The position numbers and the translations under genes were made by a program. From the NCBI RefSeq assembly GCF_055900595.2, contig NZ_CM148325.1: a DNA stretch of 64,000 nt; one strand, written 5' to 3'. The notes beneath the pieces were generated by a model. It was not told the origin of the DNA. It worked only from the letters and a program-made list of their open reading frames with translations, and searched no databases. Positions 5,929 through 38,057 of the stretch are shown here, in pieces; within the stretch, counting starts at the first letter, position 1; the number at the start of each line of letters is the position of its first letter.

Positions 5929-6516
5929 ATGAGCCATGTCTGGGGACTGTTTTCCCATCCCGATCGTGAAATGCAGGTGATTAATCGCGAAAACGAAACG
6001 ATTTCTCACCATTACACCCACCACGTTTTGCTGATGGCGGCGATTCCGGTGATTTGCGCCTTCATTGGCACCACACAAATTGGCTGGAATTTTGGCGATG
6101 GCACCATCCTGAAGTTATCCTGGTTTACCGGACTGGCGCTGGCCGTCTTGTTTTATGGCGTTATGCTGGCTGGGGTCGCGGTGATGGGGCGGGTCATCTG
6201 GTGGATGGCGCGCAATTATCCGCAGCGTCCGTCACTTGCGCACTGCATGGTCTTTGCGGGCTACGTTGCAACTCCGCTGTTTTTAAGCGGTCTGGTGGCG
6301 CTTTATCCGCTGGTCTGGTTGTGTGCGCTGGTCGGCACGGTGGCGCTGTTTTACACCGGCTACCTGCTTTATCTCGGTATTCCGAGCTTCCTGAATATCA
6401 ACAAAGAGGAAGGCCTTAGCTTCTCCAGTTCGACGCTGGCGATTGGCGTGCTGGTACTGGAAGTGCTGCTCGCCCTTACCGTTATACTATGGGGCTACGG
6501 TTATCGTTTGTTCTAG
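5929..6516 (+). CDS. yohC: Yip1-family inner membrane protein YohC
   Basis: 195 aa from MSHVWGLFSHP..., multi-pass hydrophobic; GGGG RBS upstream. Confidence 0.85.
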   Translation: MSHVWGLFSHPDREMQVINRENETISHHYTHHVLLMAAIPVICAFIGTTQIGWNFGDGTILKLSWFTGLALAVLFYGVMLAGVAVMGRVIWWMARNYPQRPSLAHCMVFAGYVATPLFLSGLVALYPLVWLCALVGTVALFYTGYLLYLGIPSFLNINKEEGLSFSSSTLAIGVLVLEVLLALTVILWGYGYRLF

Positions 6517-6689
6517 CAAGTTCTTTTGCGTTGCATTGCTGGCGTAAATGTCAGCAATGCAGCATTTCCTCACGATTCTCCTTTGACGATCGCACTTTTT
6601 GCTCGTTATGATGGCGTTGCTAGCCTCAGTAAATCCTTACTCCGGCGGTGCGCAACCTGTGCGCGTGAACCACTATCTGAATGCTCATC

Positions 6690-7622
6690 ATGCCGAAATT
6701 TCGAGTTTCTTTATTTAGCCTGGCCCTGATGCTGGCTGTGCCTTTTGCACCGCAGGCCGTTGCGAAAACGGCAGCCGCTACCACCGCTTCACAGCCGGAA
6801 ATTGCCTCCGGTAGCGCGATGATTGTTGATCTGAATACCAACAAAGTGATCTATTCGAACCACCCGGATTTGGTGCGTCCGATTGCGTCTATCAGTAAAT
6901 TAATGACCGCGATGGTTGTGCTGGATGCACGATTGCCGCTGGATGAAAAACTGAAAGTGGATATCAGCCAGACGCCGGAGATGAAAGGGGTCTATTCGCG
7001 CGTACGACTGAACAGCGAAATCAGCCGTAAAGATATGCTGTTGCTGGCGCTGATGTCTTCAGAAAACCGCGCGGCGGCAAGCCTTGCGCACCATTATCCC
7101 GGTGGTTACAAAGCCTTTATTAAGGCGATGAATGCGAAAGCGAAATCGCTCGGAATGAACAACACGCGCTTTGTTGAACCGACCGGATTGTCGGTGCATA
7201 ACGTTTCAACTGCCCGTGACTTAACCAAACTGCTCATTGCCAGCAAACAATATCCGTTGATTGGTCAGTTAAGTACTACCAGGGAAGATATGGCAACCTT
7301 CTCTAACCCGACGTATACGCTGCCGTTCCGCAATACTAACCATCTGGTGTATCGCGATAACTGGAATATTCAGTTAACCAAAACGGGCTTTACCAATGCG
7401 GCGGGCCATTGTCTGGTGATGCGTACGGTTATCAATAATAAACCGGTAGCGTTGGTGGTGATGGACGCGTTTGGCAAATATACCCATTTTGCCGATGCCA
7501 GCCGCCTGCGTACCTGGATTGAAACCGGTAAAGTGATGCCTGTTCCGGCAGCAGCGTTGAGCTATAAAAAACAAAAAGCCGCCCAGATGGCGGCGGCGGG
7601 GCAGACGGCACAGAACGATTAA
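6690..7622 (+). CDS. pbpG: D-alanyl-D-alanine endopeptidase PBP7
   Basis: 310 aa; signal peptide; SxxK motif (SISKLMT) of class A/C serine peptidases. Confidence 0.9.
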
Positions 7623-27928: not shown

Positions 27929-28603
27929 ATGAAAGGATTATTAGCTTTACTCATTTCTTCTATGGTCCTTCCTGCGCATGCCGGAATTGTTATCTACGGG
28001 ACGCGCATTATTTACCCGGCAGAAAATAAAGAAGTGATGGTGCAGTTGATGAACCAGGGAAACCGTTCTTCGCTGCTGCAGGCGTGGATTGATGATGGCG
28101 ATACGTCGTTACCACCAGAAAAAATTCAGGTTCCTTTCATGTTAACGCCACCAGTGGCCAAAATAGGGGCAAATTCCGGGCAGCAAGTAAAAATCAAAAT
28201 TATGTCGAATAAACTGCCCACTAATAAAGAGAGCATTTTTTATCTGAATGTTCTGGATATTCCACCAAATAGTCCAGAGCAAGAGGGCAAGAATGCACTG
28301 AAATTTGCAATGCAAAACAGAATCAAATTGTTTTACCGGCCTGCGGGTATTGCACCGGTAAATAAAGCGACATTTAAAAAGTTACTGGTAAATCGCAGTG
28401 GCAATGGATTGGTGATAAAAAATGACTCAGCAAATTGGGTAACGATTTCGGATGTCAAAGCTAATAATGTCAAAGTCAATTATGAAACTATTATGATTGC
28501 CCCCTTAGAAAGTCAGAGTATTAATGTCAAAAGTAATAATGCGAATAACTGGTATCTGACCATTATCGATGACCATGGCAACTATATTAGTGACAAAATT
28601 TAA
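27929..28603 (+). CDS. yehC: Periplasmic fimbrial chaperone YehC
   Basis: 224 aa, signal peptide, PapD-like chaperone. Confidence 0.88.
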   Translation: MKGLLALLISSMVLPAHAGIVIYGTRIIYPAENKEVMVQLMNQGNRSSLLQAWIDDGDTSLPPEKIQVPFMLTPPVAKIGANSGQQVKIKIMSNKLPTNKESIFYLNVLDIPPNSPEQEGKNALKFAMQNRIKLFYRPAGIAPVNKATFKKLLVNRSGNGLVIKNDSANWVTISDVKANNVKVNYETIMIAPLESQSINVKSNNANNWYLTIIDDHGNYISDKI

Positions 28604-28618: not shown

Positions 28619-31099
28619 ATGTTGAGAATGACCCCACTTGCATCAGCAATCGTAGCGTTATTGCTCGGCATTGAAGCTTATGCAGCTGAAGAAACCTTTG
28701 ATACCCATTTTATGATAGGTGGAATGAAAGACCAGCAGGTTGCAAATATTCGTCTTGATGATAATCAACCCTTGCCGGGGCAGTATGACATCGATATTTA
28801 TGTCAATAAGCAATGGCGCGGGAAATATGAGATTATTGTTAAAGACAACCCGCAAGAAACATGTTTATCAAGGGAAATTATCAAGCGGTTAGGCATTAAT
28901 ACCGATAACTTTGCCAGCGGTAAGCAATGTTTAACATTTGAGCAACTTGTTCACGGTGGGAGCTATACCTGGGATATCGGAGTTTTTCGTCTCGATTTCA
29001 GTGTACCGCAGGCGTGGGTGGAAGAACTGGAAAGTGGCTATGTTCCACCGGAAAACTGGGAGCGGGGTATTAATGCGTTTTATACCTCTTATTATGTGAG
29101 TCAGTATTACAGCGACTATAAAGCGTCGGGTAATAGCAAGAGTACATATGTACGTTTTAACAGCGGGTTAAACTTACTGGGGTGGCAACTGCATTCTGAT
29201 GCCAGTTTAAGTAAAACAAATAGCAATCCAGGGGTGTGGAAAAGCAATACCCTGTATCTGGAACGTGGATTTGCCCAACTTCTCGGCACGCTTCGCGTGG
29301 GTGATATGTACACATCAAGCGATATTTTTGATTCTGTTCGCTTCAGCGGTGTGCGGTTGTTTCGTGATATGCAGATGTTGCCTAACTCGAAACAAAATTT
29401 TACTCCACGGGTGCAGGGGATTGCTCAGAGTAACGCGCTGGTAACTATTGAACAGAACGGTTTTGTGGTTTATCAGAAAGAGGTTCCTCCTGGCCCGTTT
29501 GCGATTACAGATTTGCAGTTGGCCGGTGGTGGAGCAGATCTTGATGTCAGCGTGAAAGAGGCGGACGGTTCGGTAACCACCTATCTGGTGCCTTATGCAG
29601 CAGTGCCGAATATGCTGCAACCCGGCGTGTCGAAATATGATTTTGCGGCAGGTCGTAGCCATATTGAAGGGGCGAGCAAACAAAGTGATTTTGTTCAGGC
29701 GGGTTATCAGTATGGTTTTAATAACTTATTGACGCTGTATGGCGGATCGATGGTCGCGAATAATTATTACGCGTTCACTTTGGGGACTGGCTGGAATACA
29801 CGCATTGGTGCCATTTCCGTCGATGCCACGAAGTCGCATAGTAAACAAGACAACGGCGATGTGTTTGACGGGCAAAGTTATCAAATTGCCTACAACAAAT
29901 TTGTGAGCCAAACGTCGACGCGTTTTGGTCTGGCGGCCTGGCGTTATTCGTCGCGTGATTACCGGACATTTAACGATCACGTTTGGGCAAACAATAAAGA
30001 TAATTATCGCCGTGATGAAAACGATATCTATGACATTGCCGATTATTACCAGAACGATTTTGGCCGTAAAAATAGCTTTTCTGCCAATATGAGCCAGTCA
30101 TTGCCAGAAGGCTGGGGTTCTGTGTCCTTAAGTACGTTATGGCGAGATTACTGGGGGCGTAGCGGCAGCAGTAAGGATTATCAGTTGAGTTATTCCAACA
30201 ACCTGCGACGGATAAGCTATACCCTCGCGGCAAGCCAGGCTTATGACGAGAATCATCATGAAGAGAAACGTTTTAATATTTTTATAGCGATTCCCTTTGA
30301 TTGGGGTGATGACGTTACGACGCCTCGTCGGCAAATATATATATCTAACTCAACGACGTTTGATGATCAGGGGTTTGCCTCAAATAATACGGGATTATCG
30401 GGAACCGTTGGAAGCCGGGATCAATTTAACTATGGGGTCAACTTAAGTCATCAGCATCAGGGAAATGAAACGACAGCTGGCGCGAATTTGACCTGGAACG
30501 CGCCGGTTGCGACAGTGAATGGCAGTTATAGTCAGTCGAGTGCTTATCGACAAGCTGGAGCCAGTATTTCAGGGGGCATTGTCGCCTGGTCGGGTGGCGT
30601 TAATCTGGCGAACCGTCTTTCCGAAACGTTTGCTGTGATGAATGCGCCAGGAATTAAAGATGCTTATGTCAATGGGCAAAAATATCGCACAACAAACCGT
30701 AATGGAGTGGTGGTATACGACGGAATGACACCTTATCGGGAAAATCACCTGATGCTGGATGTGTCGCAAAGCGATAGCGAAGCAGAATTACGTGGCAACC
30801 GGAACATTGCCGCCCCTTTTCGCGGCGCGGTTGTACTGGTTAATTTTGATACCGATCAGCGCAAGCCCTGGTTTATAAAAGCGTTAAGAACGGATGGGCA
30901 ACCATTAACGTTTGGTTATGAAGTCAATGATATCCATGGTCATAATATTGGCGTTGTCGGCCAGGGAAGCCAGTTATTTATTCGCACCAATGAAGTACCG
31001 CCATCGGTTAATGTAGCAATTGATAAGCAACAAGGGCTTTCATGCACAATCACCTTCGGTAAAGAGATTGATGAAAGTAGAAATTATATTTGCCAGTAA
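28619..31099 (+). CDS. yehB: Outer-membrane fimbrial usher YehB
   Basis: 826 aa from MLRMTPLASAIVALLLG...; usher family; start trimmed from 28604. Confidence 0.88.
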   Translation: MLRMTPLASAIVALLLGIEAYAAEETFDTHFMIGGMKDQQVANIRLDDNQPLPGQYDIDIYVNKQWRGKYEIIVKDNPQETCLSREIIKRLGINTDNFASGKQCLTFEQLVHGGSYTWDIGVFRLDFSVPQAWVEELESGYVPPENWERGINAFYTSYYVSQYYSDYKASGNSKSTYVRFNSGLNLLGWQLHSDASLSKTNSNPGVWKSNTLYLERGFAQLLGTLRVGDMYTSSDIFDSVRFSGVRLFRDMQMLPNSKQNFTPRVQGIAQSNALVTIEQNGFVVYQKEVPPGPFAITDLQLAGGGADLDVSVKEADGSVTTYLVPYAAVPNMLQPGVSKYDFAAGRSHIEGASKQSDFVQAGYQYGFNNLLTLYGGSMVANNYYAFTLGTGWNTRIGAISVDATKSHSKQDNGDVFDGQSYQIAYNKFVSQTSTRFGLAAWRYSSRDYRTFNDHVWANNKDNYRRDENDIYDIADYYQNDFGRKNSFSANMSQSLPEGWGSVSLSTLWRDYWGRSGSSKDYQLSYSNNLRRISYTLAASQAYDENHHEEKRFNIFIAIPFDWGDDVTTPRRQIYISNSTTFDDQGFASNNTGLSGTVGSRDQFNYGVNLSHQHQGNETTAGANLTWNAPVATVNGSYSQSSAYRQAGASISGGIVAWSGGVNLANRLSETFAVMNAPGIKDAYVNGQKYRTTNRNGVVVYDGMTPYRENHLMLDVSQSDSEAELRGNRNIAAPFRGAVVLVNFDTDQRKPWFIKALRTDGQPLTFGYEVNDIHGHNIGVVGQGSQLFIRTNEVPPSVNVAIDKQQGLSCTITFGKEIDESRNYICQ

Positions 31100-31114
31100 T
31101 AGTCAGGTGGTTCT

Positions 31115-32149
31115 ATGAAAATTCGCATAATGCTATTTATATTAACGATGATGGTTATGCCTGTGAGCTATGCAGCATGTTATAGTGAGTTATCTGTTCA
31201 GCACAATTTGATTGTTCAGGGGGATTTTGCACTTACTCAAACACAAATGGCAACATATGAGCATAATTTTAATGATTCGTCATGCGTGAGTACAAATACT
31301 ATCACCCCTATGAGCCCGTCGGATGTTATTGTTGGACTTTATAACGATACCATTAAATTAAATTTACATTTTGAATGGACCAATAAAAACAACATCACGT
31401 TGTCAAATAATCAGACCAGTTTCACCAATGGTTATTCGGTAACGGTGACACCTGCGGCCAGTAATGCAAAAGTGAATGTTTCTGCGGGGGGCGGCGGTTC
31501 AGTGATGATTAATGGTGTTGCGACATTATCCAGTGCTTCATCATCGACACGCGGGAGTGCTGCAGTACAATTTTTACTGTGTTTATTCGGTGGCAAGTCA
31601 TGGGATGCATGTGTAAATAGCTACAGAAATGCATTGGCACAAAATGCAGGTGTCTATTCCTTTAATCTGACATTGTCATACAACCCGATAACCACAACCT
31701 GCAAACCGGACGATTTATTAATTACTTTAGAGAGTATTCCCGTTTCACAATTACCTGCTACAGGTAACAAAGCAACAATAAATAGTAACAAAGGGGATAT
31801 TGTTCTGCGTTGTAAAAACTTATTAGGTCAACAAAATCAAACATCACGGAAAATGCAGGTGTATTTATCAAGTTCTGACTTGTTAACCAACAGCAACACA
31901 ATACTGAAAGGTGCGGAAGATAATGGTGTAGGATTTATTCTTGAAAGTAATGGTTCTCCAGTCACACTTTTAAATATCACTAACAGCAGTAAAGAATACA
32001 CAAATTTAAAAGAAATTGCGGCAAAGTCAATACTTACAGATACAACGGTTTCAATTCCGATAACTGCCAGTTACTACGTCTACGATACAAATAAAATTAA
32101 ATCTGGCGCACTGGAGGCAACCGCATTAATCAACGTGAAATACGACTAA
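31115..32149 (+). CDS. yehA: Fimbrial tip adhesin-like protein YehA
   Basis: 344 aa, signal peptide, two-domain adhesin-like fimbrial protein. Confidence 0.85.
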   Translation: MKIRIMLFILTMMVMPVSYAACYSELSVQHNLIVQGDFALTQTQMATYEHNFNDSSCVSTNTITPMSPSDVIVGLYNDTIKLNLHFEWTNKNNITLSNNQTSFTNGYSVTVTPAASNAKVNVSAGGGGSVMINGVATLSSASSSTRGSAAVQFLLCLFGGKSWDACVNSYRNALAQNAGVYSFNLTLSYNPITTTCKPDDLLITLESIPVSQLPATGNKATINSNKGDIVLRCKNLLGQQNQTSRKMQVYLSSSDLLTNSNTILKGAEDNGVGFILESNGSPVTLLNITNSSKEYTNLKEIAAKSILTDTTVSIPITASYYVYDTNKIKSGALEATALINVKYD

Positions 32150-32205
32150 TAACAAGCAAGACGAGCAAGTGGCTAATAATAAAAAATAACAAGGTGTCTG
32201 CATTT

Positions 32206-32232
32206 CCCCCTCATGATGAGGGGGCTTTTTTT
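32206..32232 (+). terminator. Rho-independent terminator of the yeh fimbrial operon
   Basis: Perfect stem ccccctca/tgaggggg with 3-nt loop followed by a run of 7 T; the T-run overlaps the rcnB stop codon on the other strand. Confidence 0.75.
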
Positions 32233-32569
32233 AGCGATGATAAAAAATCTCACCATCGTAGGCTTTAATGATTTTACCGTCGGTGTCGCTGATCAACACA
32301 TACGCGCCACCCATATAGGTCCAGTGCGTCCCGGCATCAGGCGCGGGCAGGTTACGTAACTGCCACTGCTTAATGTTGTACTCATCGGTGCGGTACATCT
32401 CTGGGACGGTATCGCCTGGTTTGAAATGCTTAAAGTCAGCAATGAAACTGCTTAACTCATACTTAGAAATTCCCGAGGTATTGGTCGAACCCGCGGTGGC
32501 TGGTGCGGCCCAGGCGGCACTGGTAACCAGCAAAAGCGCACCCAGCAACATCTTATTTTTAATGGTCAT
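32231..32569 (-). CDS. rcnB: Periplasmic nickel/cobalt homeostasis protein RcnB
   Basis: 112 aa from MTIKNKMLLGALLLVTSAAWA (signal peptide); ORF-track start 32749 is an N-terminal extension. Confidence 0.85.
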   Translation of the reverse strand: MTIKNKMLLGALLLVTSAAWAAPATAGSTNTSGISKYELSSFIADFKHFKPGDTVPEMYRTDEYNIKQWQLRNLPAPDAGTHWTYMGGAYVLISDTDGKIIKAYDGEIFYHR

Positions 32570-32773
32570 ATACTCTCCACTTTGGGGATCTGTAATATCA
32601 GTCGCATATCTTTCCTGCCATACAATATAACTGACAAGCGATATTTTGTTAGTGATCCCATGATTTCGTAAAAAGTGTAAATGAAAGGATGCCCTAAAAG
32701 CATCCTTAGCGAGCAGAGAGCCAGCGGAAATAGCTGATTTAAGAATCATCCTGGGCTGAAGATAACATGCAGC

Positions 32774-33595
32774 CTATCGCATAATGCCCATAAAGCCATG
32801 CACGCCCATATACACCCCAACTAAGCCAATCAACAGACTGGAAAAATAGGGGGCACGTTTAGCGAGAGTGTTAAATCCGCTCCAGCGTTTTGCGACCTGC
32901 TGAACGCTGATTGCTGCGCCAACGCCTACGGTGACTAGCGTTAACGCCAGGCCAATGCTGAAACTGACGACCAGTGTTGCGCCTAGTGTCAGGGCTTTCA
33001 ACTGAATACAAATCAACAGCACGGTAATTGCTGCCGGGCAGGGGATCAGTCCACCTGTTAACCCAAACAATAAAATTTGCCAGTTGGTCACTTCTCTGCC
33101 ATTGAAGCGTCGTTTGATGTCATTGGCATGGGCTCGTGCATGAGCATCCTGATACTCCCCATGTTCGTGATGGTGATGATGTCCATGGTCGTGGTGATCT
33201 TCGTGATCGTGATGATACTCATGATCATGCCCGTGCATATTCTCCAGCCAGTTACGTTCGCCGCGCCAGGTACGCCAGAACATCCAGAACGCGGTGCCAA
33301 TAATGATCACCGCGGAAATCAACTGGAGCCACGGTTCTGCAGATTGAGCAGTAAAACGTTTGCTGATCACCATCCCGCCAAAGGCAATCAACCAGACCAC
33401 CGCGGTATGCGAAATGGTTGCTGCCAGTCCGAGCATCACCGCCTGTTTAATGGTGCCTTTGATGGCGATGATAAACGCCGCCATCATCGTTTTTGAGTGC
33501 CCTGGTTCCAGGCCATGAAGCGCACCAAGTAAGATGGCGCTGGGAATGAAGAACCAGGCGTTTCCTTGCTGAAGAAGAGTGGTAAATTCAGTCAT
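32774..33595 (-). CDS. rcnA: Nickel/cobalt efflux protein RcnA
   Basis: 273 aa membrane protein with a long His-rich loop (HGHDHEYHHDHEDHHDHGHHHHHEHGEY). Confidence 0.92.
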   Translation of the reverse strand: MTEFTTLLQQGNAWFFIPSAILLGALHGLEPGHSKTMMAAFIIAIKGTIKQAVMLGLAATISHTAVVWLIAFGGMVISKRFTAQSAEPWLQLISAVIIIGTAFWMFWRTWRGERNWLENMHGHDHEYHHDHEDHHDHGHHHHHEHGEYQDAHARAHANDIKRRFNGREVTNWQILLFGLTGGLIPCPAAITVLLICIQLKALTLGATLVVSFSIGLALTLVTVGVGAAISVQQVAKRWSGFNTLAKRAPYFSSLLIGLVGVYMGVHGFMGIMR

Positions 33596-33632
33596 GATAA
33601 TAATTCTTAGTATTAATTCGACAATCTGATTC

Positions 33633-33667
33633 TACTCCCCCCCAGTACATGATACTACCCCCCAGTA
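33633..33667. promoter_or_regulatory. Two RcnR operator sites (TACT-G6-N-AGTA type) in the rcnR-rcnA divergent intergenic region
   Basis: tactcccccccagta and tactaccccccagta, 20 bp apart; matches the established RcnR recognition motif. Confidence 0.8.
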
Positions 33668-33715
33668 GATTAATAGTGCTATGATTTTTCATGTTCTTGT
33701 TAACCAGGTGTTGCC

Positions 33716-33988
33716 ATGTCTCATACAATCCGTGATAAACAGAAACTGAAAGCGCGTGCCAGTAAGATTCAGGGCCAGGTCGTGGCGCTCAAGAAAATGC
33801 TCGACGAGCCGCACGAATGCGCAGCTGTTCTACAACAGATTGCTGCTATCCGTGGCGCGGTAAACGGCCTGATGCGCGAAGTGATTAAGGGGCATCTGAC
33901 GGAACACATCGTTCACCAGGGGGATGAGCTAAAACGTGAAGAAGATCTGGATGTCGTTCTGAAGGTGCTGGATTCTTATATCAAATGA
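33716..33988 (+). CDS. rcnR: Ni/Co-responsive repressor RcnR (CsoR/RcnR family)
   Basis: 90 aa; conserved H-C-H-H metal-ligand pattern of the family. Confidence 0.92.
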
Positions 33989-34097
33989 AAGTGCCTAATA
34001 TGGCCGTAGTTGAGGCAATAAATAGAGGGACAAGTGACGTTAAGCTGAATTAGAGTAAATGGCGTGAGGACACACGCCATTCGAGGATATAGTTTGA

Positions 34098-34412
34098 TTA
34101 ATTTTCGAAAAATTGCTTCACAGCCCAGCCACCATGACCACCTGGAGTTATGAATGAAACAAAACCTTTGTCATCGACGCTCTGGATTTCTACTGTCATT
34201 GATTCATCTAACACGCGACATTTATTGGATGTAATGAGACTCAGCATAGCCTGTTGGTCATTGTCCTGAATGTAACTGATCATCTCGTAAAAGTCAGTTA
34301 ACTTTTTACAGTTAAATGTACCTTCTTTAAGTGTTGCGCTGTCTCCGTGACTTAGTGCGAATGCATTTGGCATCATTGCCACAAAGATGACGGTAACGAG
34401 TAGTTTTTTCAT
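34098..34412 (-). CDS. Small secreted protein, unknown function (signal peptide, 2 Cys)
   Basis: 104 aa, MKKLLVTVIFVAMMPNAFA signal peptide; low-GC context; function not recognisable by eye. Confidence 0.6.
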   Translation of the reverse strand: MKKLLVTVIFVAMMPNAFALSHGDSATLKEGTFNCKKLTDFYEMISYIQDNDQQAMLSLITSNKCRVLDESMTVEIQSVDDKGFVSFITPGGHGGWAVKQFFEN

Positions 34413-34421
34413 TGTAGCCTC

Positions 34422-34769
34422 TTATAATTCAGAACATTCACTGATGTTGTAAGTGCCTTTTCTACCATCATCGTTTACGAGATGTAGCACGAAGATGATG
34501 GGATTGGCATCAATGAAAGATACAGAGACGTTCCCGCTTTCGGTGCTATACATCTTTGCAATCTGTTTTTCACCAATATATGAAAGATCCCAACTCACTC
34601 CGTTCAAGCTAAAATGCATCTGTTTGCCGTCAATATCGATGGAGGATTGTGCCGTAACGGTTTTCCCATTGCTGCCAATTTGACCCTGCTGAAGAGCATC
34701 ACATTTATAGGAGCTTGCATAAGTAAATAGAGGTAGTAGCAGAAGTGCAGCAAAAATTTTACTCTTCAT
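34422..34769 (-). CDS. Small secreted protein, unknown function (signal peptide, 2 Cys)
   Basis: 115 aa, MKSKIFAALLLLPLFTYASS signal peptide; tandem with the 104-aa ORF 9 bp downstream. Confidence 0.6.
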   Translation of the reverse strand: MKSKIFAALLLLPLFTYASSYKCDALQQGQIGSNGKTVTAQSSIDIDGKQMHFSLNGVSWDLSYIGEKQIAKMYSTESGNVSVSFIDANPIIFVLHLVNDDGRKGTYNISECSEL

Positions 34770-35137
34770 ATTTTCCCTTTGCTTGGATTTGAGTTACCTA
34801 TTTTGGGGTAGTCATTATAAAACTATTAATTAGTAAAATGAACAAGTTTTCATTTGTTTAGTAATGGTATTGTTTAGGTTTGAAATTATTACGTACTTTC
34901 ATAGCAATAGGTTGGATAAACAGCAGTTCAGGGAACAAGTTGCACTATCTACATACTTTCCCGCTTTCCATTGTATGTTAGGTAATAGATAGCCTTTGCC
35001 CGTAAGACTAAAAATATTAGAAATGACTCATTCGAATACCTTCTATTCACCTTAATATAGGTTTGATTATTGTAATCGTTTAATGTGTCTTATGGATTTT
35101 TTCCTACTTTTCATTTGCATAATATAGGGGGCACAGC

Positions 35138-35257
35138 ATGCTCTTGAAATTAATTATTAAGATATTTAAATTTTACAGCACACAACTACTTTTCGTTGTC
35201 TTATGTGTTGAACGTACTTCGAGTATAGGTAGGGTTGTATATATATTGCGTGGGTAG
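35138..35257 (+). CDS. Candidate small hydrophobic peptide (39 aa)
   Basis: ORF MLLKLIIKIFKFYSTQLLFVVLCVERTSSIGRVVYILRG preceded by TAGGGGG about 7 nt upstream; lies in the AT-rich islet; below the ORF-track cutoff; could be spurious. Confidence 0.25.
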   Translation: MLLKLIIKIFKFYSTQLLFVVLCVERTSSIGRVVYILRG

Positions 35258-35822
35258 AGTTAGAATAGAGGAGGCATCATTTATAGAATATTCAAGAACG
35301 TTAACCTGTGATCAATAAATAAAAATATCAAATGGTGTTCAAACATATTTTTCTATGAAAAATCCAGCCATCTATGATGAATTTTTAGATCCATTTTAAT
35401 TAAAGTATGATTATGAACCAATATTTAGCCAAGAATGGTGGTATAGCGCGTATCCAATGACACCGGAAAACGCATCTATGAAGTCCTTGTTTATCTCTAT
35501 AAGAGGAAATCAACACTAATAAAATATAGTGATGTAACACATCGAGCAGGTTGCTCTGATGCTGGTCTTCAACTGTGGCTTAAACAGCTATCAAACTTCG
35601 GTGTTATTGAGATGAAAGAATTATCTTTCTCAACTTTCAATCTCAAAAAGCTAGAGGAAATAGACCTTAATTATTCCACTCTCTAAACTTATCTCTTTAT
35701 TTAAAGTAAAAATGAAAATATTATGGTATCAGCTACGTGGTGGTAACTGGTGTTTATGATCATAGGTACACATATACAGGGAACCCTGGAAAACAAAAGT
35801 AATATATTGATGATTTCGTTTG

Positions 35823-36062
35823 TTATAACTTCGTGGTATCAAGTCCGGCGGCTTTGAGTCGCTCGGTAAGATTTCTCATTTTGCTGAACTCTGTACCAAA
35901 GCTGGCTTTAAGTCCTACACCTTCGCAAAACTCTTTTGCCGTGACGTTTTTAAGATGGTCAGCGTATTTGATCATCTGGAGGTGCATTTCCATCGTTTGG
36001 CTATTTCGTGGTGCGCTGCTAATGGCTTGCTTAATGTTCTCGTAGATCTGGGTTTCTGTCAT
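35823..36062 (-). CDS. Small putative DNA-binding protein (79 aa), unknown family
   Basis: ORF with a GGTGAGA RBS; central helix-turn-helix-like segment (VTAKEFCEGVGLKASFGTEFSKMRNL); AT-rich upstream region with 12-bp direct repeats. Confidence 0.55.
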   Translation of the reverse strand: MTETQIYENIKQAISSAPRNSQTMEMHLQMIKYADHLKNVTAKEFCEGVGLKASFGTEFSKMRNLTERLKAAGLDTTKL

Positions 36063-36269
36063 TTTTTATCTCACCTATCAAATTTAGATAAATAATATAA
36101 ATTAGATAAATAAGATAATCAATAGTTTTTACCATATGAATAATGGATGTGGATTGTTTCTTTTTCATTTCTGATATGGAGTACAAAATGGGGTCACAAT
36201 GAAGAAGCGATGAATGGAGGCGAGCTTGCATCTGCAAGCCTCTTCCCCTAATCTGGCACAAAATATAGA

Positions 36270-36407
36270 GATTCAACCAAACGACTCGGGGTGCCCTTCT
36301 GCGTGAAGGCTGAGAAATACCCGTATCACCTGATCTGGATAATGCCAGCGTAGGGAAGTCACGGACCACCAGGTCATTGCTTCTTCACGTTATGGCAGGA
36401 GCAAACT
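36270..36407 (+). promoter_or_regulatory. TPP (thi-box) riboswitch in the thiM leader
   Basis: Sequence AACCAAACGACTCGGGGTGCCCTTCTGCGTGAAGGCTGAGAAATACCCGTATCACCTGATCTGGATAATGCCAGCGTAGGGAAGTC... matches the E. coli thiM aptamer and expression platform; the anti-SD region overlaps the thiM RBS. Confidence 0.9.
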
Positions 36408-37196
36408 ATGCAAGTCGACCTGCTGAGTTCCGCGCAATCTGCGCACGCGTTACACCTTTTTCACCAACATTCCCCTCTTGTGCATTGCATGACCAATGAT
36501 GTGGTGCAAACCTTTACTGCCAATACCTTGCTGGCGCTCGGTGCATCGCCAGCGATGGTTATCGAAACCGAAGAAGCCAGTCAGTTTGCGGCTATCGCCA
36601 GTGCCTTGCTAATTAACGTCGGCACGCTGACGCAGCCACGCGCACAGGCGATGCGTGCTGCCGTTGAACAGGCAACACACTCTCAAACCCCCTGGACGCT
36701 TGATCCGGTCGCGGTTGGCGCACTCGATTATCGTCGCCGTTTTTGTCATGAACTTTTATCTTTTAAACCGGCAGCGATACGTGGTAATGCTTCGGAAATC
36801 ATGGCATTAGCTGGCGTTGCTAATGGTGGACGGGGAGTGGACACCACTGACGCCGCAGCTAATGCGATACCCGCTGCACAAACACTGGCACGGGAAACTG
36901 GCGCAATCGTCGTGGTCACAGGCGAGGTGGATTATGTTACCGATGGTCGTCGCACCGTTGGCATTCACGGCGGCAATCCGTTAATGACCAAAGTGGTAGG
37001 AACTGGCTGTGCATTATCGGCAGTTGTCGCTGCCTGTTGTGCATTACCTGGCGATATGCTGGAAAATATCGCATCTGCCTGTCACTGGATGAAACAAGCC
37101 GGAGAACGCGCCGTCGCCAGAAGTGAAGGGCCTGGCAGTTTTGTTCCCCATTTTCTTGATGCGCTCTGGCAATTGACGCAGGAGGTGCAGGCGTGA
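36408..37196 (+). CDS. thiM: Hydroxyethylthiazole kinase
   Basis: 262 aa; 4-bp overlap with thiD. Confidence 0.92.
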
Positions 37197-37993
37197 AACG
37201 AATTAACGCTCTGACAATTGCAGGCACTGATCCCAGTGGTGGCGCAGGAATTCAGGCAGATCTCAAAACGTTCTCGGCACTTGGCGCTTATGGTTGCTCA
37301 GTGATTACTGCACTGGTGGCGCAAAATACCCGTGGCGTACAGTCGGTGTATCGCATTGAGCCTGATTTTGTCGCCGCCCAGCTCGATTCGGTGTTCAGCG
37401 ATGTGCGAATCGATACCACTAAAATCGGTATGTTGGCGGAAACTGATATTGTTGAAGCGGTGGCAGAACGGTTGCAACGTTATCAGATCCAAAACGTGGT
37501 GCTCGACACCGTTATGCTGGCAAAAAGCGGCGACCCGCTGCTTTCACCTTCGGCGGTTGCTACGCTGCGCAGTCGATTATTGCCACAGGTTTCATTAATA
37601 ACGCCAAACTTGCCCGAAGCAGCCGCCTTGCTCGACGCGCCACACGCGCGCAACGAACAGGAAATGCTGGAACAAGGGCGATCGCTGTTGGCGATGGGCT
37701 GTGGCGCAGTGCTAATGAAAGGTGGTCATCTGGATGATGAGCAAAGCCCGGACTGGCTGTTTACCCGCGAGGGTGAACAACGGTTTACCGCACCGCGCAT
37801 TATGACCCAAAACACCCACGGCACTGGTTGTACGCTCTCTGCGGCGTTGGCTGCACTGCGCCCGCGCCATACAAACTGGGCTGACACCGTACAGGAGGCA
37901 AAAAGCTGGCTTTCATCGGCATTAGCCCAGGCCGACACGCTGGAAGTTGGTCACGGTATTGGTCCGGTTCACCACTTCCACGCCTGGTGGTGA
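37193..37993 (+). CDS. thiD: Hydroxymethylpyrimidine/phosphomethylpyrimidine kinase
   Basis: 266 aa; GTG start; ribokinase-like fold. Confidence 0.92.
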
Positions 37994-38057
37994 GCACCGT
38001 ACTATAGCTGCTTTGGTTATTGTCAGTCTTTGGCGCTGACATTCAGGGATGAAACCA

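What the first reader, a model, noticed from the sequence alone, without database searches (positions are those of the whole stretch)
33989..36407. AT-rich islet between rcnR and the thiM riboswitch
About 2.4 kb that is much more AT-rich than the flanking core genes holds three minus-strand genes (104-aa and 115-aa secreted proteins, a 79-aa HTH-like protein) separated by about 1 kb of gene-free, decayed-looking DNA with only short broken reading frames. This composition and organisation suggest a horizontally acquired and partly eroded islet. I am not certain how much of it exists in K-12.
Basis: partly seen in the sequence, partly recalled or inferred. Interest (0 to 1): 0.6.

Follow-up and report, generated by a model that had tools for sequence, protein, structure and literature searches.

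The report
Decayed island at thiM riboswitch
The AT-rich stretch is real foreign DNA: the worn-down, immobile remains of mobile phage-defence islands that insert into the thiamine (TPP) riboswitch in front of thiM, a kind of insertion target I could not find described.

Summary

- **Composition and spread.** Bases 33989-36273 are 36.2% GC against 49.9% for the window. K-12 and about 90% of E. coli have only 91 bp here. The islet is in 339 of 5,426 complete genomes, including O157:H7.
- **Origin.** Other strains carry 7.7-12.9 kb islands at this spot. Each has a tyrosine integrase next to rcnR and two copies of the thiM TPP aptamer, an exact 82-bp repeat in strain E67. The window keeps the thiM-side junction but has no rcnR-side junction and no integrase.
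- **The 1-kb gap.** It holds fragments of an integrase gene, a replication-like gene and an 81-codon gene.
- **Intact genes.** The 79-aa protein is a homologue of RptR, a characterised defence-island repressor, with two operator sites but no cargo gene. The 115-aa protein has a predicted PliC/MliC-like beta-barrel. The 104-aa protein is SH3-like.
- **Consequences.** The native thiM promoter is gone, so thiMD must rely on island DNA (inferred). Strain XJ34 has a second element inserted into this islet's riboswitch copy.
- **Wider family.** Relatives of the integrase sit 84-98 bp downstream of a truncated thiM aptamer in 19 of 22 loci from other Enterobacterales.

The parts
33989..34051 (.). Left junction segment of 63 bp with no identified relative. 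Homology to the empty site stops at the rcnR stop codon (TAA in the empty site, TGA here).
   Evidence: No rcnR-side junction (attL), no native intergenic sequence, no second riboswitch copy.
34062..34075 (-). Terminator-like hairpin downstream of the 104-aa gene.
   Evidence: It lies within the block that matches the PEC389 island.
34098..34412 (-). Gene for a 104-aa Sec-exported protein. The predicted fold is a small SH3/Tudor-like barrel plus two helices. Function unknown.
   Evidence: (pLDDT 86). It is 81% identical in protein to its homologue inside the PEC389 island and 77% to the one in a Citrobacter island; dN/dS 0.05-0.07. No Pfam, NCBIfam or PADLOC family.
34422..34769 (-). Gene for a 115-aa Sec-exported protein with two conserved cysteines. 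The predicted fold is an eight-stranded beta-barrel of the PliC/MliC/PhiA type.
34770..34855 (.). Upstream region of the 115-aa gene. It is the last stretch that is collinear with the PEC389 and Citrobacter islands.
   Evidence: 34052-34855 is about 76% identical to L007 9001-9803 and L027 16309-17088.
34907..34999 (+). Pseudogene: the last 31 codons of a tyrosine integrase gene, with an internal stop.
   Evidence: 58% identical to residues 402-432 of the E67 and VN2017 integrases, E 1.6e-6. One search reads HYLHTFPLSIVC*VIDSLCP* against the family consensus RYLHTFPLSTVCYVIDGLCWES.
35000..35261 (.). Orphan AT-rich DNA with no relative found.
   Evidence: blastn and tblastx against all fetched islands gave nothing.
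35262..35400 (+). Remnant of the 3' end of the island's replication-initiator-like gene.
   Evidence: 72-74% nucleotide identity to the 3' ends of L010 6476-7138 and L011 6447-7139. The E67 homologue matches phage replication-initiator families.
35456..35653 (+). Pseudogene of the island's 81-codon gene. The N-terminal part is broken by stop codons and no usable start remains.
   Evidence: 82% identity over residues 16-81; frame translation; no ORF listed.
35823..36062 (-). rptR homologue: a 79-aa HTH_73 repressor. It is intact but has no downstream gene to control.
   Evidence: PF24718, E 7e-31. (PDB 9R2Z, E 2e-32). PMC12255303. Residues E25, E58, S60, K61, L69, A72 and L74 are all present (read from the sequence). 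dN/dS 0.03-0.04.
36085..36122 (-). rptR promoter and operator. Promoter-like TTGATT-17-TATATT at 36122-36094, and two RptR-type hexamers (TAGATA) at 36085-36090 and 36103-36108, i.e. at -28 and -46 from the start codon.
   Evidence: 18-bp direct repeat D3. Site definition and the rule of at least two sites come from PMC12255303.
36178..36198 (+). Two degenerate copies, 12 bp apart, of the arm-type integrase-site motif G[GA]GGTACA (here GGAGTACA and GGGGTcACA).
   Evidence: In intact type-A islands nearly every occurrence of the exact motif lies in the two arms next to the attachment site.
36200..36258 (+). Inverted, diverged copy of the native thiM leader, conserved at island right ends. 36200-36213 is the reverse complement of the expression platform, 36224-36239 is a palindrome, and 36242-36258 is the reverse complement of the aptamer 3' end. 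It overlaps the only, weak, promoter-like hexamers upstream of thiM (TTGCAT 36226-36231, TAATCT 36249-36254). Role unexplained.
   Evidence: (inverted pair I3).
36274..36355 (+). The 82-bp block shared by the island's and the chromosome's attachment sites. It is the 5' 82 nt of the thiM aptamer region. This is the thiM-side copy (attR); it is the only copy in the window.
   Evidence: (exact 82-bp direct repeat flanking the E67 island).
36277..36373 (+). TPP riboswitch aptamer of thiM, intact.
   Evidence: RF00059, 71.2 bits, gathering score 54.3. Identical in sequence to the empty-site strain.

Best explanation
The islet is the immobilised, internally deleted remains of site-specific integrative islands that use the thiM TPP riboswitch aptamer as their chromosomal attachment site.

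How intact members work. An intact island has a tyrosine integrase at its rcnR-proximal end. Its other end carries a copy of the first 73-82 nt of the aptamer. Recombination near the 3' end of the aptamer (...GCCAGCGTAG) inserts the island. The native thiM promoter plus a truncated aptamer are left in front of the integrase gene (attL). The island's own upstream DNA plus a rebuilt, complete riboswitch end up in front of thiM (attR).

What happened here. At least two such islands most likely accumulated in tandem. Deletions then removed attL, the native intergenic region and promoter, nearly all of the integrase gene and the defence cargo.

What remains:
(i) an intact riboswitch whose 5' flank is island DNA, so thiMD transcription must start in island sequence;
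(ii) an orphan, apparently self-repressed RptR repressor;
(iii) two exported small proteins of the island backbone, one with a lysozyme-inhibitor-like fold;
(iv) a riboswitch copy that still works as a landing site for new elements.

Shown by sequence comparison: the attachment-site geometry, the remnants, the family-wide target specificity and the later integration in XJ34. Inferred: the order of events, the source of thiMD transcription and the functions of the two exported proteins.
For: Empty site versus window. There are 91 bp between rcnR and the riboswitch in strain 1190 and in K-12. Homology to the window breaks at the rcnR stop codon on one side and at the aptamer 5' end on the other.

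Intact islands at the same place. E67 is 7,732 bp with an exact 82-bp direct repeat. PEC389 is 10,889 bp. 2017.17.03CC is 12,858 bp. O139 P15-25 has another. In E67, PEC389 and 2017.17.03CC the two junction sequences were read. AttL is the native promoter, the aptamer block and then the integrase gene. AttR is the island end, the aptamer block, the native expression platform and thiM. The window has exactly this attR.

Window content maps onto island backbones. The 104/115-aa gene pair matches PEC389 and a Citrobacter island. Bases 35381-36273 match the E67 right end. Fragments of the integrase, replication-like and 81-codon genes lie in the gap.

Tandem arrays are real. XJ34 has this same islet (97.2% identical) followed by a second integrase element inserted in the islet's riboswitch copy. 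In six loci from other genera, attL is preceded by another island's right end.

Family-level specificity. The integrase family was found in 22 loci from a dozen other genera of Enterobacterales. In 19 of them a thiM-type aptamer copy, cut at position 77-82, ends 84-98 bp upstream of the integrase start. Complete copies lie downstream and are confirmed as TPP riboswitches.

Position of the crossover. AttL and attR copies differ almost only in the 5' leader and the P3 hairpin, so the crossover lies in the 3' part of the block.

Arm-type repeats. They occur almost only in the two arms next to the attachment site, and their sequence changes with the integrase subtype.

Frequency. 339 of 5,426 genomes carry the islet. 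550 carry rptR plus this type of right end. 167-222 carry an integrase of the family.
Against: No excision or integration has been observed; everything rests on comparative sequence.

The window has no attL, and its left junction is unexplained. It falls exactly at the rcnR stop codon, and 63 bp there have no relative.

The tandem-plus-deletion history is only the most parsimonious reading of the gene order, in which the integrase remnant lies to the right of the 104/115 pair. No intermediate form was found among 5,426 genomes.

The integrase remnant is only 31 codons long.

No promoter of consensus quality for thiM is detectable in the island end. The candidate TTGCAT-17-TAATCT matches only 6 of 12 positions (my count from the sequence), so the promoter replacement is inferred from necessity, not shown.

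262 bp (35000-35261) remain unassigned.
Confidence: 0.8

Rival explanations
1. One island, not two. The islet descends from a single island whose internal order was rearranged, for example by the island's own serine invertase or by illegitimate recombination, before or during the deletions.
For: The islands encode a Hin-like invertase. No tandem intermediate containing this exact left half was found.
Against: Both the integrase remnant (+) and the 104/115 pair (-) keep the orientations they have in intact islands, but their order is swapped. A single inversion or deletion cannot give this. Tandem arrays at this site are directly observed. The left half resembles PEC389-type islands and the right half E67-type islands.
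Confidence: 0.12
2. A selected mini-module rather than passive debris. The three intact genes are kept because they benefit the host: a periplasmic inhibitor-like pair and a repressor that cross-regulates other RptR-controlled defence loci. The islet persists for that reason. This is compatible with the origin given above.
For: All three ORFs are intact in both O157:H7 records and in XJ34, the three other carriers examined, and the 104- and 115-aa genes are 99% identical between the window and O157:H7 while neighbouring genes decayed. dN/dS is 0.03-0.07 against island homologues. The rptR promoter keeps two operator sites. Many E. coli carry further rptR paralogues elsewhere (PMC12255303).
Against: The low dN/dS was measured against homologues in intact islands, not within the islet lineage, where too few substitutions exist to test. 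RptR has lost the gene it would control. No function is demonstrated for either exported protein.
Confidence: 0.35
3. Ancestral DNA lost elsewhere. The islet is old E. coli sequence that K-12 and most strains deleted.
For: It is fixed in a large lineage (O157:H7) and has no integrase or flanking repeats of its own.
Against: The empty site is not a deletion product. It holds a different 91 bp with a promoter-like site (TTTACA-17-TACCAT) that the window lacks. That same 91 bp lies next to attL of intact islands. The islet is 13.7 GC points below the window average. It contains integrase and replication-gene debris.
Confidence: 0.02
4. Insertion by a transposon or insertion sequence.
For: Insertion sequences do sit in related islands (IS1 in PEC389 and E. 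coli B, IS2 and IS3 in others).
Against: The islet has no transposase, no terminal inverted repeats and no target-site duplication.
Confidence: 0.02

Closest known systems
Genomic islands integrated in tRNA and tmRNA genes (Islander/TIGER paradigm; PMC4383910, PMC7192596)
   Same: A tyrosine integrase sits at one end. The target is a short, highly conserved stretch of DNA that encodes a structured RNA. The island carries a copy of the displaced part, so the target is regenerated and a fragment marks the other end. Arm-type repeats are present. Tandem arrays and decayed, integrase-less remnants are common.
   Different: The target here is not an RNA gene but the ligand-binding aptamer of an mRNA leader. 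The island restores the 5' part, not the 3' part, so it also has to replace everything upstream, including the promoter. The integrase gene becomes fused to the host promoter and a truncated aptamer.
Islands that insert into the 5' end of dusA (DusA-associated integrases; recalled from memory, not checked here)
   Same: Integration is at the 5' end of the target, and the island supplies a new 5' end and upstream region for the host gene.
   Different: That target is protein-coding sequence. Here the target is a riboswitch aptamer, and RNA structure is maintained in the island-borne part (alternative P3 stems TTC...GAA and CATC...GATG).
Phage phiEf11 attachment site in ffs, the 4.5S RNA gene (PMC12540744)
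   Same: It is a recently reported example of a non-tRNA structured-RNA locus used as an attachment site.
   Different: That is a stand-alone RNA gene in Enterococcus targeted by a complete prophage. Here a cis-regulatory leader in Enterobacterales is targeted by small defence islands.
RptR and the RRDM defence island of enteropathogenic E. coli (PMC12255303; PDB 9R2Z)
   Same: The 79-aa protein is a clear homologue with the same length, all named key residues and at least two operator hexamers around its promoter.
   Different: In RRDM, RptR controls a Type I restriction system with DarTG2. In relatives at the thiM site it precedes the Type IV enzyme EcoBLMcrX. In the window nothing follows it.
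The E. coli B genome island next to thiM that carries EcoBLMcrX (PMC5487053)
   Same: It is at the same chromosomal site and has the same right end: ECD_02033 is an rptR homologue, and BL21 and B match 35829-36273 at 79%. It also lacks any integrase described in the paper.
   Different: The B version keeps the restriction gene, holds an IS1 and replaces the K-12 segment between thiM and mrp. The window version keeps the rcn genes and yehA, and has lost the restriction gene. The paper does not mention a riboswitch or an integrase.
MliC/PliC/PhiA periplasmic inhibitors of lysozymes and peptidoglycan hydrolases
   Different: It has 5-10% sequence identity to them, no Pfam MliC match and no recognisable inhibitory-loop motifs. 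This is a resemblance of fold only.

Membership tests
Functional site-specific integrative island (tyrosine-integrase type) | Intact integrase gene | tested here: not met
   Only the last 31 codons survive, with an internal stop (34907-34999). Intact relatives have a 434-451 aa integrase with a Pfam Phage_integrase domain and a PHROG integrase match at E 1e-26.
Functional site-specific integrative island (tyrosine-integrase type) | Direct repeats of the attachment site at both ends | tested here: not met
   There is one copy only (36274-36355). No second aptamer copy or other flanking repeat exists in the window region. E67 has an exact 82-bp pair.
Functional site-specific integrative island (tyrosine-integrase type) | Junction with the target identical to that of intact members, and a precise empty site in other genomes | tested here: inconclusive
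   The right junction has the same architecture as attR of E67, PEC389 and 2017.17.03CC. The left junction is a deletion scar at the rcnR stop codon, not an attL.
RptR (HTH_73) repressors | Sequence homology to the crystallised RptR, and the same length | tested here: met
   PDB 9R2Z chain A, E 2.1e-32 over residues 1-77, both 79 aa. Pfam PF24718, E 7e-31.
RptR (HTH_73) repressors | Conserved DNA-contact residues (E58, K61, S60) and dimer residues (E25, L69, A72, L74) named in PMC12255303 | tested here: met
   All seven are present, read directly from the translated sequence against the paper's list.
RptR (HTH_73) repressors | At least two binding hexamers (TAGCTA, TAGATA, TATCTA or TATATA) within 100 bp upstream of the start codon | tested here: met
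   Two sites, at -28 and -46 (36085-36090 and 36103-36108), flank the -10 element of the predicted promoter. These hexamers occur at 0.047 per 100 bp in the whole window.
RptR (HTH_73) repressors | A defence operon downstream, under its control | tested here: not met
   The next 1 kb holds only pseudogene debris. Relatives have EcoBLMcrX (annotated DUF6998) directly downstream.
RptR (HTH_73) repressors | DNA binding and repression | not testable with these tools
   Needs a gel-shift or reporter assay.
TPP riboswitch (Rfam RF00059) | Covariance-model score above the gathering threshold, with the full model matched | tested here: met
   36277-36373, 71.2 bits against 54.3, model positions 1-105. 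The aptamer and expression platform were read base by base as identical to the empty-site strain 1190.
MliC/PliC lysozyme inhibitors | Sequence-family membership (Pfam MliC) | tested here: not met
   No Pfam match, even at E <= 10.
MliC/PliC lysozyme inhibitors | Exported eight-stranded beta-barrel | tested here: met
MliC/PliC lysozyme inhibitors | Inhibition of a muramidase | not testable with these tools
   Needs biochemistry.
Phage satellites (PICI-like) | Integrase, replication module, and packaging or capsid-redirecting genes | tested here: not met
   The window has only debris of an integrase and a replication-like gene. Intact E. coli islands have an integrase and a replication-like gene, but no packaging genes are annotated. 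Only the second element in XJ34 has capsid and tape-measure genes. The integrase has no match in 50,697 phage records.

The most novel reading that the evidence does not exclude
The riboswitch is more than a convenient conserved target. Integration swaps regulatory parts on purpose. The host's thiM promoter and an aptamer lacking helix P1 become the leader of the integrase gene. The island end also carries a conserved inverted copy of the native thiM leader (the crossover region plus the anti-Shine-Dalgarno platform), which could pair with the rebuilt riboswitch. On this reading, island excision and/or thiMD expression would be coupled to thiamine status, or the inverted copy would be a second integrase site that allows a local DNA switch.
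Probability: 0.12. Interest if true: 0.8.

Novelty: new variant of a known kind. Interest (0 to 1): 0.55.

Why it matters
**Explains a recurrent islet.** It accounts for an uncharacterised islet in E. coli O157:H7 and other lineages. It also links two separately published observations, the EcoBLMcrX island of E. coli B and the RptR repressor, to one mobile-element family.

**Extends a known rule.** Integrative islands are known to home to tRNA and tmRNA genes. Here the same logic applies to a riboswitch aptamer. The element has to carry a working 5' half of the riboswitch and everything upstream of it.

**Changes a textbook locus.** In about one in ten complete E. coli genomes the thiMD operon sits behind island DNA instead of its native promoter. 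This matters for work on thiamine regulation and on TPP-riboswitch-directed antibacterials.

**Possible tool.** The integrases could serve for insertion at a site present in all but two of the 5,426 complete E. coli genomes searched and in the other Enterobacterales genera sampled.

**Limits.** The window's own copy is a dead remnant, and there is no experimental evidence of recombination. The interest lies mainly in the family the remnant reveals.

Tried and rejected
- **Small RNA or other RNA family in the gap.** The Rfam scan at E <= 1 over 31000-39000 found only the TPP riboswitch and one chance-level hit.
- **Defence-system or curated-family assignment of the three proteins.** NCBIfam and PADLOC gave nothing. 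PHROGs gave only same-length families of unknown function. Pfam gave nothing for the 104-aa and 115-aa proteins.
- **Transposon or insertion-sequence origin.** No terminal inverted repeats or target duplication.
- **Consensus promoter for thiM in the island end.** None by the scan's criteria, although the same scan finds the native K-12 promoter.
- **Origin of 33989-34051 and 35000-35261.** No match by blastn or tblastx to any fetched island, nor in E. coli genomes beyond the islet carriers.
- **Integrase as a known phage integrase.** No match in the phage collection.
- **Intermediate forms of the islet.** All 339 genomes with the left half have the same deleted structure. XJ34 adds a later element to it rather than an earlier stage.
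- **Regulatory hairpin in the integrase leader.** A hairpin that would hide the ribosome-binding site (CUCUUUUUGU pairing with ACAAAAAGGG) is conserved. It overlaps an arm-type integrase site, so conservation cannot be attributed to RNA. I did not pursue it.
- **Prior description of a riboswitch as an attachment site.** Nine full-text searches and five papers read turned up none. The library lacks most subscription journals, so absence is not proof.
Full report
**1. The observation**

The window is E. coli. The order is rcnB(-), rcnA(-), rcnR(+, 33716-33988), the islet, the TPP riboswitch (36277-36373, Rfam 71.2 bits), then thiM (+, from 36408) and thiD.

The stretch 33989-36273 is 36.2% GC. 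The window as a whole is 49.9%, rcnB-rcnR is 48.7% and thiM-thiD is 55.0%. No other 2,285-bp window in the 64 kb is as low.

They are annotated in a genome that is 100% identical over 33700-36700. Between the 115-aa and 79-aa genes lie 1,053 bp at 32% GC with no ORF of 50 aa or more. The only correction is that the foreign DNA ends at 36273, because the riboswitch and thiM leader are core sequence.

**2. Presence and absence**

A search of 5,426 complete E. coli genomes found the flanks in 5,424 of them. The islet is in only 339 (6%), including O157:H7 at 97.1% identity.

K-12 MG1655 and strain 1190 have just 91 bp between the rcnR stop codon and the riboswitch. This is not a simple insertion. 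Similarity to the empty site stops at the rcnR stop codon (TAA there, TGA here) and resumes exactly at the 5' end of the aptamer region, CAACCAAACGACTCGGGG. The whole native intergenic region is missing from the window. That includes a promoter-like TTTACA-17-TACCAT, which the scan finds in K-12.

**3. What the islet derives from**

Other strains carry larger islands at the same place.

- **E67.** The order is rcnR, the native 91 bp, a TPP aptamer copy, a tyrosine integrase, an HNH Type IV restriction-like gene, a 115-aa gene, an HTH gene, a serine invertase, a replication-initiator-like gene, an 81-codon gene and the 79-aa HTH_73 gene. A second aptamer copy follows, continuous with the native expression platform and thiM. 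The two copies are an exact 82-bp direct repeat equal to window 36274-36355, and the unit is 7,732 bp.
- **PEC389 (10,889 bp).** It has the same ends. It carries a TIR-domain protein, the invertase, homologues of both the 104-aa and 115-aa genes in the same order and orientation as in the window, an IS1, a DUF6998 gene and the HTH_73 gene.
- **2017.17.03CC (12,858 bp).** It carries HNH and AIPR genes, the invertase, a 116-aa homologue, DUF6998 and HTH_73.
- **O139 P15-25.** It carries a GmrSD gene.

The rcnR-side junction (attL) reads native promoter, aptamer block, integrase gene. The thiM-side junction (attR) reads island end, aptamer block, native platform, thiM. The window's right junction is this attR.

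**4. The attachment site and the integrase family**

The integrases contain a Phage_integrase domain and match the PHROG integrase family.

A scan of one genome per species with an alignment of four of them returned 22 loci. They come from Lelliottia, Enterobacter, Erwinia, Citrobacter, Silvania, Cedecea, Pluralibacter, Pantoea, Mangrovibacter, Pseudenterobacter, Franconibacter and Kosakonia.

- In 19 of the 22, a thiM-type aptamer copy on the same strand ends 84-98 bp upstream of the integrase start. It is always cut at position 77-82 of the block.
- Where the island is short enough, a complete copy lies downstream. In nearly all of these loci a thiM-like start (MQ.DLL) follows it.
- Rfam scores the thiM-proximal copies at 72-78 bits. 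The integrase-proximal copies of the main subtype score 60-63 bits, still above threshold although helix P1 is lost.
- Paired copies differ almost only in the 5' leader and the P3 hairpin. The P3 variants are two alternative, self-consistent stems (TTC...GAA and CATC...GATG). This places the crossover in the last 10-45 nt...GCCAGCGTAG.
- The motif G[GA]GGTACA occurs almost only in the two arms. There are three copies 12 bp apart near the island's right end and two copies at -22 and +2 of the integrase start. A second integrase subtype (about 71% identical) has GGGACACA in the same places.

This is the classical layout of a lambda-type attachment site. I conclude that the thiM TPP aptamer is the chromosomal attachment site of this family. 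The island carries the 5' part of the aptamer and must supply what lies upstream of it.

**5. Anatomy of the window's islet**

- **34052-34855** (the 104/115-aa genes and their flanks) is 76% identical in nucleotides to the PEC389 island and to a Citrobacter island.
- **34907-34999 (+)** encodes the last 31 residues of an integrase. It reads HYLHTFPLSIVC*VIDSLCP against the consensus RYLHTFPLSTVCYVIDGLCWES.
- **35262-35400** is the 3' end of the replication-like gene.
- **35456-35653** is the 81-codon gene, with stops in its N-terminal part.
- **35381-36273** is about 85% identical to the E67 right end.
- **33989-34051 and 35000-35261** have no identified relative.
- The arm-type repeats survive only as degenerate copies at 36178-36198.

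The integrase remnant lies to the right of the 104/115 pair. In intact islands the integrase is to their left, and all orientations are unchanged here. The simplest history is therefore two islands in tandem followed by deletions.

Tandem occupancy is directly seen. Strain XJ34 has this same islet (97.2% identical over 33601-36353). It is followed by a second integrase element with capsid and tape-measure genes, inserted in the islet's riboswitch copy, with a new aptamer copy next to thiM. In six loci from other genera, attL is preceded by another island's right end. XJ34 also shows that the islet's riboswitch still works as a landing site.

**6. The three intact genes**

*The 79-aa protein.* It matches Pfam HTH_73 and PDB 9R2Z at E 2e-32. 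9R2Z is RptR, a repressor of a defence-island promoter in enteropathogenic E. coli. RptR binds TAGCTA-type hexamers and needs at least two sites for full repression (PMC12255303). The window protein has all the residues that paper names (E25, E58, S60, K61, L69, A72, L74).

In PEC389, 2017.17.03CC and E. coli B the gene downstream of rptR is EcoBLMcrX. The 2017.17.03CC protein begins MSAREAY and ends VTEEFQSV, exactly as the primers of PMC5487053 encode. In the window that gene is gone, so RptR is an orphan.

*The 104-aa protein.* It is modelled as an SH3-like barrel with two helices, with no informative match. The annotation "outer membrane protein" has no support.

Both families are confined to Enterobacteriaceae and are unnamed. 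All three genes show dN/dS of 0.03-0.07 against island homologues.

**7. Consequences for thiMD**

The aptamer and expression platform are identical to the native ones, so TPP control of translation should be unchanged. This is inferred. Everything upstream is island DNA.

ThiD is needed for thiamine synthesis (established knowledge). Transcription must therefore start in the island end or further upstream. No consensus-quality promoter is found there. The best candidate, TTGCAT-17-TAATCT at 36226-36254, matches 6 of 12 positions by my count, but it lies in a block conserved across genera.

About 10% of complete E. coli genomes (550 of 5,426) have rptR plus this type of right end. In every such locus examined it abuts thiM. 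BL21, B and ATCC 8739 are among the 550.

**8. An unexplained feature**

The island right end carries an inverted, diverged copy of the native thiM leader spanning the crossover.

- In the main subtype it is the reverse complement of the anti-Shine-Dalgarno platform (GCGTGAAGAAGCGATAACCGG, an exact match to the Lelliottia platform), then a palindrome, then the reverse complement of aptamer positions 70-86.
- In the second subtype it covers aptamer positions 47-88.
- Alignment scores are 4.5 to 12 standard deviations above shuffles, and 0 of 300 shuffles reach them in intact islands.
- The window's copy (36200-36258) is partly degraded (z 1.5-3.2).

It could be an extra integrase site, an RNA partner of the riboswitch, or a relic. 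I could not decide.

**9. Comparison and novelty**

The logic is that of tRNA- and tmRNA-targeting islands, but the target is a riboswitch aptamer and the restored part is the 5' side together with the promoter.

Nine full-text searches found no description of a riboswitch used as an attachment site. The E. coli B paper describes an island next to thiM without noting an integrase or a riboswitch. The RptR paper does not mention integrases or thiM. The library is incomplete, so this is not proof of novelty.

The window's own copy is a dead remnant. Its interest is that it points to the family.

**10. Verdict**

- Confidence that the islet is a remnant of riboswitch-targeting integrase islands: about 0.8.
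- Confidence in the tandem history specifically: about 0.6.
- Interest: 0.55.
- Novelty: new variant of a known kind.

Noticed in passing
window 38448-38450 (within yegX, 38058-38876): yegX (glycoside hydrolase family 25) has an in-frame stop after codon 130 in the window (...LLRGAYH*FSPS...). The reading frame is split into ORFs of 133 and 124 aa. In the genome identical over 33700-36700, yegX is annotated as full length; I did not compare the two beyond 36700.
   Followed up: partly
L009 (NZ_CP027550.1, strain 2015C-4136CT1), locus 6001-6043: Only 43 bp of the aptamer block remain upstream of thiM and no riboswitch is annotated. A different island (a PerC-family regulator, fragments of Ant and BRO genes) abuts thiM. 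This strain may have lost TPP control of thiMD.
   Followed up: no
window 36200-36258; island right ends in L005, L007, L008, L013, L014, L020, L021, L027, L028, L031-L034: A conserved inverted copy of the native thiM leader (crossover region, plus the platform or the aptamer 3' half) sits just upstream of the island-borne aptamer copy. Scores are 4.5-12 standard deviations above shuffles in intact islands. The platform part matches the Lelliottia/Enterobacter leader exactly in PEC389-type ends, and matches the E. coli leader better in E67-type ends.
   Followed up: partly
window 36063-36273 compared with L002 (O157:H7) and L005 (E67): The spacer between rptR and the aptamer is only 86-87% identical between the window and O157:H7, while the rest of the islet is 97-99% identical. 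The window's spacer is closer to E67 (91.5%). O157:H7 lacks one 12-bp arm repeat. This suggests later exchange at the thiM-side end.
   Followed up: partly
window 32774-33595 (rcnA), compared with L002, L004, L005, L013: The annotated length of rcnA varies among strains (810, 822, 825, 840 and 852 bp). I presume the variation lies in the histidine-rich loop (HDHEYHHDHEDHHDHGHHHHHEHGE in the window), but I did not align the genes.
   Followed up: no
L006 (plasmid pX14-3-NDM), 6006-7551 and 9770 onward: An rptR homologue (91% protein identity) lies directly downstream of a tyrosine integrase gene, next to a second integrase and a BREX system (annotated DUF1819, DUF1788 and BrxC). This is a plasmid-borne link between RptR, an integrase and a defence system.
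   Followed up: no
L011 (O26 strain RM8426), 6015-7429, next to tRNA-Thr: An element at a tRNA-Thr gene shares the small-ORF, replication-like and 92-aa module with the thiM islands (74% nucleotide identity to window 35261-35755). It continues into capsid and baseplate genes, so the replication module is shared with a phage-like element.
   Followed up: no
L021 and L028 (Enterobacter cloacae, Mangrovibacter): Some family members are tiny: about 3.4-3.7 kb between the two aptamer copies, i.e. the integrase plus about 2 kb.
   Followed up: no
window 31000-32200 and 28200-28600: Two further low-GC stretches (0.35-0.36). The first covers the yehA fimbrial adhesin gene. Neither was examined.
   Followed up: no
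window 32187-32232 (-): A weak Rfam hit to Hrs1 (23.6 bits against a gathering score of 56.4; E 0.39). Most likely chance.
   Followed up: no
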